Positions 36,520 to 36,720 of a stretch of 64,000 nt of DNA are shown piece after piece; position 1 is the stretch's first letter; each line of letters begins with the position of its first letter. This DNA comes from Candidatus Omnitrophota bacterium (GTDB taxonomy: Bacteria > Omnitrophota > Gorgyraeia > JABMRN01), in NCBI GenBank assembly GCA_028702395.1, contig JAQVOV010000001.1, forward strand, positions 3,990 to 67,989, given 5' to 3'. Under the pieces are notes generated by a model. That model searched no databases. It was not told the DNA's origin and saw only the letters and a program-made list of their open reading frames with translations. Both the position numbers and the translations under genes were made by a program.

Positions 36520-36720
36520 GTTAGAGACGAGAAGCAAGAAGCAAGAAGCAAGAAGCAAGAAGCAAAAGAACTCTATATACGTGTTATCTTTAAATCAATT
36601 AATTCTAGTCACTAGTCACTAGTCACTAGTCACTAGTCACTAGTCACTAGTCACTAGTCACTAGTCACTAGTCACTAGTCACTAGTCACTAGTCACTAGT
36701 CACTAGTCACTAGCAGACAC
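36520..36720. repeat. Tandem heptad array (GCAAGAA)x4 ... (TAGTCAC)x~17 with conserved spacer 'agaactctatatacgtgttatctttaaatcaattaattc'
   Basis: Direct 7-bp tandem repeats. Same architecture at 1195..1370 ((GCCAGAA)4...(TGGTCAC)12), 38865..39055 ((TAGTCAC)~19), 40000..40100 ((TGGTCAC)5). Confidence 0.85.

What the first reader, a model, noticed from the sequence alone, without database searches (positions are those of the whole stretch)
36520..36720. Long perfect tandem arrays of 7-bp units (TAGTCAC/TGGTCAC) x5-19, paired with (GCAAGAA/GCCAGAA) x3-4 arrays
Four loci carry [GCCAGAA or GCAAGAA]n - 'AGAACTCTATATACG(T/G)TTATCTTTAAATCAATTAAT(A/T)CT' - [TGGTCAC or TAGTCAC]n with n up to ~19.
- 1195..1370, upstream of the GT2 gene.
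- 36520..36720.
- 38865..39055.
- 40000..40100, directly abutting the rsmE start.

Perfect heptad arrays of this length are hypermutable by slipped-strand mispairing. Located between a TTTAAA/TCAATTAAT core and a start codon, they could act as phase-variable promoter or UTR spacers (contingency loci). Each 7-bp change shifts the helical phase by about two-thirds of a turn.

Heptad identity (TAG versus TGG) is homogeneous within each array, consistent with recent in situ expansion.
Basis: partly seen in the sequence, partly recalled or inferred. Interest (0 to 1): 0.55.

Follow-up and report, generated by a model that had tools for sequence, protein, structure and literature searches.

The report
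Expanded heptamer arms of IVS-like repeats
The long perfect 7-base arrays are real, but they are over-grown arms of a small hairpin-forming repeat scattered through this uncultured bacterium's genome, a gene-less relative of the 'intervening sequences' that invade ribosomal RNA genes, and nothing shows that they act as dedicated on/off switches for neighbouring genes.

Summary
Perfect arrays of ACTGGTC x12.4 and x6.1 and of CTAGTCA x15.6 and x18.6 sit at the stated sites, next to a conserved ~40-nt core and short GAAGCCA/AGAAGCA arrays.

The host is a Candidatus Omnitrophota MAG whose intergenic DNA is built from heptamer modules. The four loci belong to a family of about 10 copies in the window. 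Five other copies carry the core in the opposite orientation, flanked by ~4.4-unit inverted heptamer arms. These fold into long hairpins (z -4 to -8) in intercistronic spacers of housekeeping operons.

These copies align to both ends of a cassette in a related metagenome contig. That cassette carries a PF05635 '23S rRNA intervening-sequence protein' gene in its loop. Fifteen such genes from six phyla, including a true 23S rRNA IVS, tend to have complementary flanks with 7-nt periodicity.

My reading is that the flagged arrays are slippage-expanded arms of ORF-less IVS-like elements. They are probably length-hypervariable.

The switch idea is weak:
- Two arrays have no downstream gene.
- The core's only promoter-like match faces away from the array.
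- Relatives lack any spacer at the GT2 junction.
- The nearby genes are ordinary.

Copy-number variation in the population could not be tested.

The parts
1199..1242 (+). Locus 1, short arm (GAAGCCA x6.3, 91%). In cassette orientation (- strand) this is the distal arm.
   Evidence: TRF; sequence.
1240..1279 (-). Locus 1 core (AGAGAACTCTTAATACGTTTTTATCTTTAAATCAATTAAT). It is the reverse complement of the leader that precedes the IVP gene in the related cassette L131.
1280..1366 (+). Locus 1 expanded arm, ACTGGTC x12.4, perfect. It ends 20 nt before the GT2 start codon at 1387 (tail CTAAACGATATAAGGGAGTGAA).
36530..36565 (+). Locus 2 short arm, AGAAGCA x5.1, perfect.
36566..36604 (-). Locus 2 core.
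36605..36713 (+). Locus 2 expanded arm, CTAGTCA x15.6, perfect (the flagged array). The next gene is a - strand GNAT acetyltransferase whose stop lies at 36757.
36271..36745 (+). Composite repeat that contains locus 2. Order of modules: AAAGATA array, GGGTGGAAC motif, GTAGGGGC hairpin, CGCATAT array, GCCACGAGCTGCG array, arm, core, arm, ACTCATGACACA array.
38866..38884 (+). Locus 3 short arm, mixed CCAGAAG/CAAGAAG units (about 2.7).
38885..38921 (-). Locus 3 core.
38922..39051 (+). Locus 3 expanded arm, CTAGTCA x18.6, perfect. It is a paralogue of locus 2: flanks are 92% identical and the arrays differ by 3 units.
40002..40027 (+). Locus 4 short arm, degenerate (AGAGACA x3.7, 73%).
40028..40061 (-). 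Locus 4 core. The only promoter-like match here is on the - strand (TTGATT-17-TATAGT, 9 of 12).
40062..40104 (+). Locus 4 expanded arm, ACTGGTC x6.1, perfect, upstream of rsmE.
2108..2214 (+). Hairpin copy between GT2 and the YdjC-like gene: (TTAGTGA)n, core in cassette orientation, (CTAGTCA)n.
   Evidence: (z -5.7).
6463..6655 (+). Hairpin copy between the 6S RNA terminator and mgsA: (GACCAGA)n, core, (TCTGGTT)n.
   Evidence: z -8.3.
31193..31295 (+). Hairpin copy between gcvH and gcvP. Its right arm is 100% identical over 34 nt to the right arm of the L131 IVP cassette.
   Evidence: (z -4.1).
35044..35188 (+). Hairpin copy between the lipoate-protein ligase gene and the radical SAM (lipoyl synthase-like) gene.
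   Evidence: (z -6.7).
47376..47595 (+). Hairpin copy between a truncated cheR and a response-regulator gene.

Best explanation
**What it is.** The four loci are copies of one dispersed, modular intergenic repeat of a Candidatus Omnitrophota lineage. A complete copy has three parts:
- an arm of about 4-5 degenerate heptamers (GTGACTA or GACCAGA type);
- an AT-rich core (AATTGATTTAAAGATAA...);
- a second arm that is the inverted complement of the first (CTAGTCA or TCTGGTY type).

Together these form a stem of about 25-30 bp. In a related metagenome contig the same arms and core enclose a PF05635 gene (23S rRNA intervening-sequence protein, S23p, four-helix-bundle protein), and the core is that gene's leader. 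I therefore read the window copies as ORF-less, MITE-like derivatives of an IVS-type cassette.

**The flagged loci.** Here the cassette lies on the - strand and the two arms are no longer complementary. The arm next to the leader has grown by replication slippage from the usual ~4.4 units to 6-19 perfect units. Growth is probably helped by the self-complementary ACTAGT/ACUGGU inside each unit.

**Shown here:**
- the anatomy of the family;
- hairpin potential of the complete copies;
- homology to both cassette ends;
- association of PF05635 genes with flanking heptamer arrays in several phyla;
- insertion at a junction that has no spacer in relatives;
- multiple-of-7 indels between paralogues.

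**Inferred:**
- The arrays are length-hypervariable.
- Transcribed stems are cut by RNase III, as in rRNA intervening sequences. This would let the element sit in operons without much harm.
- Array length has at most a graded effect on GT2 and rsmE, not an on/off effect.
For: **Arrays and period.**
- Arrays are perfect and only period 7 forms them.
- 41 of 44 period-7 arrays are intergenic, with a median of 4.3 copies.
- Intergenic lag-7 identity is 0.353 against a baseline of about 0.27.

**Family and hairpins.**
- The core occurs 10 times against 2.4 expected.
- The five complete copies fold with z -4.1 to -8.3.
- The flagged copies do not fold significantly: z -0.15 to -1.6. Arm-arm duplexes are -8.5 to -26.5 kcal/mol, against -32 to -50 with proper partner arms.

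**Link to the IVP cassette.**
- Alignment A5 places the window copies on both ends of the L131 cassette, with the ~370-nt ORF absent. Supporting blastn matches are 90% over 51 nt and 100% over 34 nt.
- The L131 ORF matches PF05635 at E 3.8e-43.
- Inverted heptamer arrays also flank PF05635 genes in a Hymenobacteraceae MAG ((GACTAGT)x5 ... (ACTAGTC)x5) and a Victivallales MAG.
- Of 15 PF05635 loci, 11 have complementary flanks (z <= -2.5). Lag-7 identity in their flanks is 0.437, against 0.28 in control stretches.
- One of these loci is a true 23S rRNA IVS (Rfam LSU, 695 bits).

**Dynamics.**
- The PMT-GT2 junction has overlapping genes in relatives at 82% and 68% identity, and different hairpins in an 88% relative.
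- L2 and L3 differ by indels of 7, 7 and 21 nt, plus three units (21 nt) in the right array.

**Literature.**
- The Coxiella IVS carries an S23p ORF, is excised by RNase III, and has (GACAGAT)2-3 repeats that vary between strains (PMC4990558).
- The H. influenzae hmw (ATCTTTC)n 5'-UTR hairpin is cut by RNase III (PMC12721329).
Against: - No PF05635 gene or remnant is present in the 64-kb window. The link rests on one related contig of unknown taxonomy plus the cross-phylum pattern.
- The direction of descent is not proven. A PF05635 gene could have landed in a pre-existing hairpin.
- No target-site duplication is detectable and no mobilising enzyme is known.
- The hairpins show no consistent strand bias in stability, so RNA-level function is not demonstrated.
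- Cyanobacterial intergenic DNA is rich in heptamers in general, which could inflate the PF05635 association. The only control was stretches 230-330 nt away, mostly inside genes.
- Length hypervariability was not observed directly.
Confidence: 0.6

Rival explanations
1. Contingency loci. The arrays are phase-variable spacers in the promoter or 5' UTR of GT2 and rsmE. Gain or loss of 7-bp units switches or tunes expression, as with the hmw1A/hmw2A (ATCTTTC)n repeats of H. influenzae.
For: - The arrays are perfect and long enough to be hypermutable.
- Locus 1 ends 20 nt before the start of a glycosyltransferase gene, a classic kind of phase-variable target.
- The left and right arms of locus 1 can pair weakly (CCAG:CUGG, -21 kcal/mol). 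This resembles the hmw repeat/G-rich hairpin (PMC12721329).
Against: - Loci 2 and 3, which have the longest arrays, have no downstream + strand gene.
- rsmE and the genes next to sister copies are housekeeping genes.
- No + strand promoter-like match lies in the core.
- Relatives express GT2 from an overlapping-gene junction with no spacer at all.
- The arrays belong to a genome-wide repeat family, not to particular genes.
Confidence: 0.15
2. Generic REP/MITE-like hairpin repeat unrelated to IVS cassettes. The heptamer-armed hairpins are the primary element. The PF05635 gene in contig L131, and similar cases, are secondary passengers that landed in hairpin loops. The long arrays are ordinary microsatellite growth.
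For: - No PF05635 gene lies in the window.
- Arrays of arbitrary heptamers are common. In viral contigs CTRGTCA x4 gives 9 loci, and three shuffled units give 0, 16 and 6.
- Many heptamer modules in the window have no visible link to PF05635.
- Heptamers are the over-represented long SSR class in many bacteria (PMC4692102 and PMC4679880, both citing Mrazek 2007).
Against: - The core sits exactly where the PF05635 leader and start lie in L131.
- PF05635 genes from six phyla, including a real rRNA IVS, have complementary, 7-periodic flanks. Chance landings would not easily give this.
Confidence: 0.2
3. Multi-site binding platform. The single-stranded (CUAGUCA)n or (CUGGUCA)n tract just 5' of the ribosome-binding site recruits a protein with a footprint of about 7 nt (cold-shock protein, S1, CsrA-like). 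This would control translation, as proposed for TAACTGA repeats in Beggiatoaceae.
For: - In six copies the gene-proximal arm ends 15-25 nt before the start codon and is followed by a conserved CTAAAYGCTATAAAGGAG tail.
- The same tail occurs in a related contig.
- The precedent hypothesis is in PMC4679880. Some reporter effects of heptamer repeats in Nostoc are in bioRxiv 10.1101/2022.06.06.494920.
Against: - Across 129 CTRGTCA arrays in other phyla there is no preference for the forward orientation upstream of starts (13 forward against 19 reverse).
- Loci 2 and 3 precede no gene.
- No candidate protein was identified.
- The unit sequence differs between copies (CTAG type against CTGG type).
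Confidence: 0.08
4. Assembly artefact. The arrays, or their lengths, were created by the metagenome assembler.
For: - Perfect repeats of 87-130 bp are near the resolving limit of short-read assemblers.
- The Logan contigs of the same run break inside the arrays.
Against: - The array edges are reproduced independently in the Logan assembly.
- The four arrays have four different lengths.
- The same architecture occurs in unrelated assemblies and in finished plasmids.
- Existence is therefore safe. Only the exact copy number is uncertain.
Confidence: 0.03

Closest known systems
23S rRNA intervening sequences carrying an S23p / four-helix-bundle ORF (PF05635), e.g. Coxiella burnetii, Leptospira
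   Same: - Two inverted arms form a long stem around a loop.
- In the related contig L131 the loop holds a PF05635 gene, with the window's core as its leader.
- The arms are built of tandem heptamers. Coxiella has (GACAGAT)2-3 upstream of the ORF, and the number varies between strains (PMC4990558).
- An Azospirillum 23S IVS examined here also has a stem made of heptamers.
   Different: - The window copies have no ORF.
- They lie in mRNA intergenic and intercistronic spacers, not in helix 25 or 45 of 23S rRNA.
- Four copies have lost arm complementarity and carry 6-19 perfect units on one arm.
- RNase III excision is not shown here.
Intergenic heptanucleotide repeats: cyanobacterial STRR, TAACTGA in Beggiatoaceae, Cyanobacteria and Bacteroidetes (MacGregor 2015, PMC4679880), GGGAATC in Xanthomonas and Nostoc (PMC4692102)
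   Same: - Period 7 only.
- Intergenic, often just upstream of start codons.
- Often mixed with other heptamers and with inverted partner arrays.
- Indels come in 7-nt steps.
- No functional pattern in the neighbouring genes.
- Arrays of the very same unit, CTRGTCA, occur in more than 120 stretches across many phyla.
   Different: - A different unit sequence and a different phylum (Omnitrophota).
- Here the arrays are demonstrably arms of a defined element with a conserved core.
- A link to PF05635 cassettes is proposed. I did not find this link in those papers.
H. influenzae hmw1A/hmw2A (ATCTTTC)n phase variation
   Same: - A perfect heptamer array of 10-25 units upstream of a gene.
- The array pairs with a partly complementary partner to form a 5'-UTR hairpin.
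- RNase III is involved, and length changes by slippage (PMC12721329, PMC8262952).
   Different: - hmw is a gene-specific system with two mapped promoters and a surface adhesin as target.
- Here the arrays belong to a dispersed family.
- Half of them precede no gene.
- The nearby genes are ordinary, and no transcription data exist.
REP/BIME, Correia and other small palindromic intergenic repeats (MITE-like)
   Same: - Short, multi-copy, found in both orientations.
- Hairpin-forming and intercistronic.
- Mosaic and modular.
- One hairpin module in the window is a target of an IS110-family insertion, as REPs are for some IS elements (own knowledge).
   Different: - The arms are tandem heptamers rather than a fixed palindrome.
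- No terminal inverted repeats with a target-site duplication.
- No associated transposase of the RAYT type was seen.

Membership tests
Phase-variable contingency locus (SSR-controlled gene) | A hypermutable simple-sequence repeat that is perfect and long. | tested here: met
   100% identity over 6-19 units. Indels between paralogues L2 and L3 come in multiples of 7 nt.
Phase-variable contingency locus (SSR-controlled gene) | The repeat lies within the promoter, 5' UTR or ORF of a specific gene, so that length alters its expression. | tested here: inconclusive
   Loci 1 and 4 lie upstream of GT2 and rsmE. Loci 2 and 3 precede no + strand gene. No + strand promoter-like site lies in the core. 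No transcript data exist.
Phase-variable contingency locus (SSR-controlled gene) | Repeat number varies within populations or between strains and correlates with phenotype. | not testable with these tools
   The organism is found in one sample only, and its Logan contigs end inside the arrays.
Phase-variable contingency locus (SSR-controlled gene) | The locus is retained at the gene in relatives. | tested here: not met
   PMT and GT2 overlap, with no spacer, in relatives at 82% and 68% identity. An 88% relative has different hairpins and no CTRGTCA array.
IVS-type cassette (PF05635 / S23p element) | Inverted flanks form a long stem. | tested here: inconclusive
   Met for the five complete copies (z -4.1 to -8.3). 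Not met for the four flagged copies (z -0.15 to -1.6; duplex energies).
IVS-type cassette (PF05635 / S23p element) | A PF05635 ORF in the loop. | tested here: not met
   None in the window. Present in the homologous cassette of contig L131 (E 3.8e-43; alignment). The window copies can therefore only be ORF-less derivatives.
IVS-type cassette (PF05635 / S23p element) | Location in helix 25 or 45 of the 23S rRNA gene. | tested here: not met
   All copies lie between protein-coding or 6S RNA genes. Many PF05635 genes on plasmids are likewise outside rRNA genes.
IVS-type cassette (PF05635 / S23p element) | Excision of the stem-loop from the transcript by RNase III. | not testable with these tools
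   Known for Coxiella and other IVSs (PMC4990558). Only stem length and stability could be computed here.
Intergenic heptanucleotide SSR (STRR / TAACTGA class) | Tandem direct repeats with a 7-nt unit, intergenic, over-represented relative to other periods. | tested here: met
MITE / REP-like mobile repeat | Multiple dispersed copies in both orientations at non-orthologous sites. | tested here: met
   10 core matches in the window, 4 on + and 6 on -. Copies lie in unrelated gene contexts in Ga0172381 contigs.
MITE / REP-like mobile repeat | Target-site duplication and/or an identifiable mobilising enzyme. | tested here: not met
   Flank alignments are no better than shuffles (p 0.14-0.68). No candidate enzyme was seen. 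The only transposase nearby is an IS110-family gene of a separate insertion.

The most novel reading that the evidence does not exclude
Heptamer-array hairpins, including many of the 'STRR-type' intergenic heptamer repeats long known in cyanobacteria, Bacteroidota and others, are the arms or footprints of a widespread selfish cassette built around the PF05635 (S23p, bAvd-like) gene. This is the same element that appears as intervening sequences in 23S rRNA. On this reading the element can live inside operons and rRNA genes because its heptamer stem is excised by RNase III. ORF-less copies spread or persist as MITE-like hairpins. Arm length drifts by slippage and tunes processing of neighbouring cistrons. 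The PF05635 pentamer may itself recognise the heptamer arms.
Probability: 0.3. Interest if true: 0.75.

Novelty: new variant of a known kind. Interest (0 to 1): 0.5.

Why it matters
- If the link holds, it gives a concrete origin for intergenic heptamer arrays, a class of bacterial repeat described since 1990 and still unexplained.
- It would extend rRNA 'intervening sequences' from a curiosity of 23S genes to a general dispersed element of operons in several phyla, including the uncultured Omnitrophota.
- It makes a testable prediction: RNase III cuts at the base of heptamer stems in mRNAs, and the downstream cistron then starts just 5' of its ribosome-binding site.
- Practically, these arrays break short-read assemblies (Logan contigs end in them). 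Their copy numbers in MAGs should therefore not be trusted.
- For the finding as first stated, the message is cautionary. A long perfect repeat next to a start codon is not by itself evidence of a contingency switch.

Tried and rejected
1. **Copy-number comparison across assemblies.** Exact-protein look-ups for GT2, the radical SAM gene and the gene next to rsmE found only Logan contigs of one run, and these end inside the arrays. The GNAT protein is not on record.
2. **Core plus array in GTDB species representatives.** No hits.
3. **Is the unit CTRGTCA special across phyla?** More than 120 stretches were found in many phyla. In viral contigs, however, shuffled heptamers are about as frequent: 9 for CTRGTCA against 0, 16 and 6. 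It is the period that matters, not the sequence.
4. **Orientation of arrays in other phyla.** No preference relative to start codons.
5. **Target-site duplications.** Not significant.
6. **RNA-strand bias of hairpin stability.** Three copies favour the + strand and two the - strand. No conclusion.
7. **Core as promoter.**
   - The scan found no + strand match.
   - The only match is weak, on the - strand at locus 4.
   - By eye, TTGATY and TATAGA boxes 15-17 nt apart are conserved, but in the flagged loci they face away from the array.
   - In L131 they overlap the IVP start, so I read the core as a leader and not as a promoter.
8. **Invertible-promoter idea.** Rejected. The arms of the flagged loci are not inverted repeats. 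In the 88% relative the core-like motif lies outside the hairpins.
9. **Hairpins as intrinsic terminators.** Rejected by reading. No T-run follows the complete copies whose sequence was read. The terminator scan covered only 900-2400 and 35900-40300, and it found none at the copy at 2108-2214.
10. **Rfam.** The gathering scan of the window found only tmRNA, 6S RNA and tRNA.
11. **PF05635 remnants in the window.** None.
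Full report
**1. The observation**

TRF finds these arrays (read directly):

| Locus | Long array | Unit and copies | Left array |
|---|---|---|---|
| 1 | 1280-1366 | ACTGGTC x12.4, perfect | 1199-1242, GAAGCCA x6.3 (91%) |
| 2 | 36605-36713 | CTAGTCA x15.6, perfect | 36530-36565, AGAAGCA x5.1 (100%) |
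| 3 | 38922-39051 | CTAGTCA x18.6, perfect | 2-4 imperfect units |
| 4 | 40062-40104 | ACTGGTC x6.1, perfect | 2-4 imperfect units |

- The 17-mer TTATCTTTAAATCAATT is exact in all four loci. With up to 3 mismatches it occurs 10 times in the window against 2.4 expected.
- Among periods 4-12, only period 7 yields perfect arrays of at least 3 copies (8 against 0).
- An independent Logan assembly reproduces the array edge upstream of an identical GT2 gene, and its contig stops inside the repeat.
- The arrays therefore exist. Their exact copy number is only as good as the assembly.

**2. Host and landscape**

- The DXP synthase encoded at 18095-19969 is 100% identical to a protein of a Candidatus Omnitrophica MAG on a 73.5-kb contig.
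- The window is 35% G+C, with strong positive GC skew and 50 of 58 genes on the + strand.
- Its intergenic fifth is a mosaic of heptamer-based modules.
- 41 of 44 period-7 arrays are intergenic, with a median length of 4.3 units.
- Intergenic DNA has lag-7, lag-14 and lag-21 identity of 0.35, 0.33 and 0.32 over a baseline of about 0.27. Coding DNA shows only the 3-nt period.
- A relative at 68% GT2 identity has no period-7 arrays in 12.7 kb. Another related contig is full of them. The habit is therefore lineage-specific.

**3. The four loci are part of a larger family**

- Six further core matches lie on the - strand.
- Five of them (2108-2214, 6463-6655, 31193-31295, 35044-35188, 47376-47595) have this structure: (GTGACTA or GACCAGA)n, then AGAATAAATTGATTTAAAGATAA..., then (CTAGTCA or TCTGGTY)n. 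The two arms are inverted repeats of about 4.4 units.
- They fold into long hairpins with z-scores of -4.1 to -8.3.
- They occupy spacers between same-strand genes:
  - GT2 to a YdjC-like gene;
  - gcvH to gcvP;
  - a lipoate-protein ligase gene to a radical SAM gene;
  - a truncated cheR to a response-regulator gene;
  - the 6S RNA terminator to mgsA.
- The gene-proximal arm is followed by a conserved CTAAAYGCTATAAAGGAG tail and then the start codon. Genes without the element lack this tail.
- The four flagged loci carry the same ~40-nt core in the opposite orientation.
  - Their two arms are only 3-4 of 7 complementary.
  - They do not fold better than shuffles (z -0.15 to -1.6).
  - Their own arm pairs give -8.5 to -26.5 kcal/mol. 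The expanded arm would give -32 to -50 with a proper partner.
- They are therefore 'broken' copies in which one arm has grown far beyond the family norm.

**4. Dynamics**

- Loci 2 and 3 sit in two copies of a ~480-bp composite repeat. These copies are 92% identical outside the arrays. All clear indels between them are 7, 7 and 21 nt, and the two right arrays differ by three units (109 vs 130 nt; the aligner split this 21-nt difference into small gaps).
- The TAG or TGG variant goes with the junction subtype: loci 1 and 4 against loci 2 and 3.
- At the orthologous dxs-gltX spacer, an 87%-identical relative has different modules.
- At the PMT-GT2 junction:
  - relatives at 82% and 68% identity have genes overlapping by 14 nt and no spacer;
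  - an 88% relative has a 182-nt spacer with different nested hairpins (ACACAGA/TCTGTGT arms, z -4.5) and a core-like motif in the other orientation.
- The locus-1 element is thus a recent insertion and its array a recent expansion. It is not a conserved regulator of GT2.
- No target-site duplication is detectable.

**5. What the element is related to**

- A metagenome scan with the core found four contigs of one sample (Ga0172381) with true copies in unrelated gene contexts.
- In one of them (L131) the left arm and core, and 380 nt later the right arm, enclose a 119-aa ORF that matches PF05635 (23S rRNA intervening-sequence protein, S23p, four-helix-bundle, bAvd-like) at E 3.8e-43.
- There the core runs straight into the ORF's start (TTGATTTAAAGATAAGAGAATTACATG).
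- Alignment A5 puts three window hairpin copies on both ends of this cassette, with the ORF missing. The right arm of the 31193 copy is 100% identical over 34 nt.
- Searching the loci already fetched for other reasons found two more cases:
  - a Hymenobacteraceae PF05635 gene flanked exactly by (GACTAGT)x5 and (ACTAGTC)x5;
  - a Victivallales one flanked by inverted GCTGAAA/TTTCAGC arrays.
- Twelve PF05635 genes sampled from plasmids were then examined. Sources were Nostoc, Pseudanabaena, Stanieria, Anabaena, Geminocystis, Picosynechococcus, Gemmatirosa, Azospirillum, Riemerella and others.
  - They sit between genes of operons (nrdA/nrdB, cas6/cas4 twice, cmr2/cmr3).
  - Most are flanked by heptamer arrays, usually inverted.
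- Over all 15 loci:
  - 11 have complementary flanks (z <= -2.5);
  - flank lag-7 identity is 0.437 against 0.28-0.30 at other lags and in control stretches.
- The Azospirillum case is a genuine 23S rRNA IVS.

**6. Literature**

- For the Coxiella IVS, tandem heptameric repeats upstream of the S23p ORF differ in number between strains, and RNase III excises the element (PMC4990558).
- For H. influenzae hmw, a heptamer array forms a 5'-UTR hairpin cut by RNase III (PMC12721329).
- I found no paper that links PF05635 to intergenic heptamer arrays in general.

**7. Most likely explanation**

- The flagged arrays are the leader-side arms of four ORF-less, minus-strand copies of an IVS-type cassette family. 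They expanded by slipped-strand mispairing.
- Each unit contains ACTAGT (or ACUGGU with G-U pairs), so slipped-out units can self-pair (seen in the folds). This should favour expansion.
- I infer that transcribed complete copies are RNase III substrates, as IVSs are. That would explain their tolerance inside operons.
- I also infer that array length affects GT2 and rsmE at most in a graded way.
- The direction of descent (ORF loss against ORF capture), the mobility mechanism and actual length polymorphism remain unproven.

**8.

- In-situ expansion and hypermutability are reasonable.
- The switch model is not supported, for four reasons:
  - Two arrays precede no gene.
  - The core gives no + strand promoter-like match, and the only match faces away from the array.
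  - The neighbouring genes are ordinary.
  - The locus is absent in relatives.
- Arrays of the same unit are common in many phyla, but so are arrays of shuffled heptamers in viral contigs.
- Their orientation to genes elsewhere is unbiased.
- The sequence of the unit therefore carries no special message.

**9. Verdict**

This is a real feature: a new variant of two known kinds (heptanucleotide SSRs and IVS/S23p elements) in a phylum where neither has been described, as far as I could find. Interest is moderate. It would be higher if the PF05635-heptamer link proves general.

Noticed in passing
window 37395-38684: An IS110-family insertion sequence of about 1.29 kb. The transposase gene at 37463-38533 matches PF01548 and PF02371. 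Subterminal inverted repeats are ATGGTAACCAGTTG and CAACTGGTTACCAT. It interrupts the GTAG^GGGC hairpin module of the second composite repeat; the intact copy reads GTTTTTGTAGGGGCAGACC at about 36335. This is REP-like targeting of a palindromic repeat.
   Followed up: partly
window, all intergenic regions (e.g. 14695-14825, 19974-20210, 24060-24400, 34075-34230, 60935-61200): Intergenic DNA is a mosaic of nested inverted heptamer arrays (AAAGATA/TATCTTT, CGCATAT, AGCTCGT, ACTCATG types). These surround GTAGGGGC...GCCCCTAC hairpins and a recurrent GGGTGGAACGTCCTGA motif (12 copies). Whether these other modules also derive from PF05635 cassettes was not examined.
   Followed up: partly
window 47050-47370: The cheR ORF is only 106 aa (CheR_N plus the first ~20 residues of the SAM-binding domain) and abuts a hairpin element. 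The gene appears truncated at the repeat.
   Followed up: no
window 21499-22045: A 275-bp unit is tandemly duplicated (2.0 copies, 97%) just upstream of tRNA-Gln (22150-22223). Each copy contains an AAGATAA array and a GTAGGGGCGTATTGCAATACGCCCCTAC hairpin.
   Followed up: no
window 42041-42429 and 42576-42685 / 43667-43776: ARAGORN calls an unusually short tag (ALAY**) for the tmRNA gene. Downstream of it, two 110-nt direct repeats (95% identical) lie 1091 nt apart. This could mark a small inserted segment.
   Followed up: no
window 20073-20157, 61089-61173, 62983-63067: An 85-nt repeat in three copies (84-94% identical) contains the palindrome CCGCCAAAATTTTGCAAAATTTTGGCGG. It lies between heptamer arrays upstream of genes.
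   Followed up: no
L137 384-397 and L138 6001-6014, compared with window 1189-1387: In relatives the PMT-like and GT2 genes overlap by 14 nt. In the window's lineage a spacer of about 200 nt made of repeat modules separates them, and the GT2 ribosome-binding region is retained on the gene side.
   Followed up: yes
L206, L209, L211, L204 (cyanobacterial plasmids): PF05635 genes are inserted between cas6 and cas4 in two different genera, between cmr2 and cmr3, and between nrdB and nrdA. The one between nrdB and nrdA lies on the strand opposite to both neighbours.
   Followed up: partly
L015 (Verrucomicrobiota MAG), L022, L023, L026, L044 and others: In many phyla CTRGTCA arrays lie next to arrays of one-base variants (CTGCTCA, CTGTTCA, CTGATCA, CTGGTTA) or of unrelated heptamers (e.g. 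(TGCCTTC)n). This suggests unit-by-unit drift and homogenisation within arrays.
   Followed up: no
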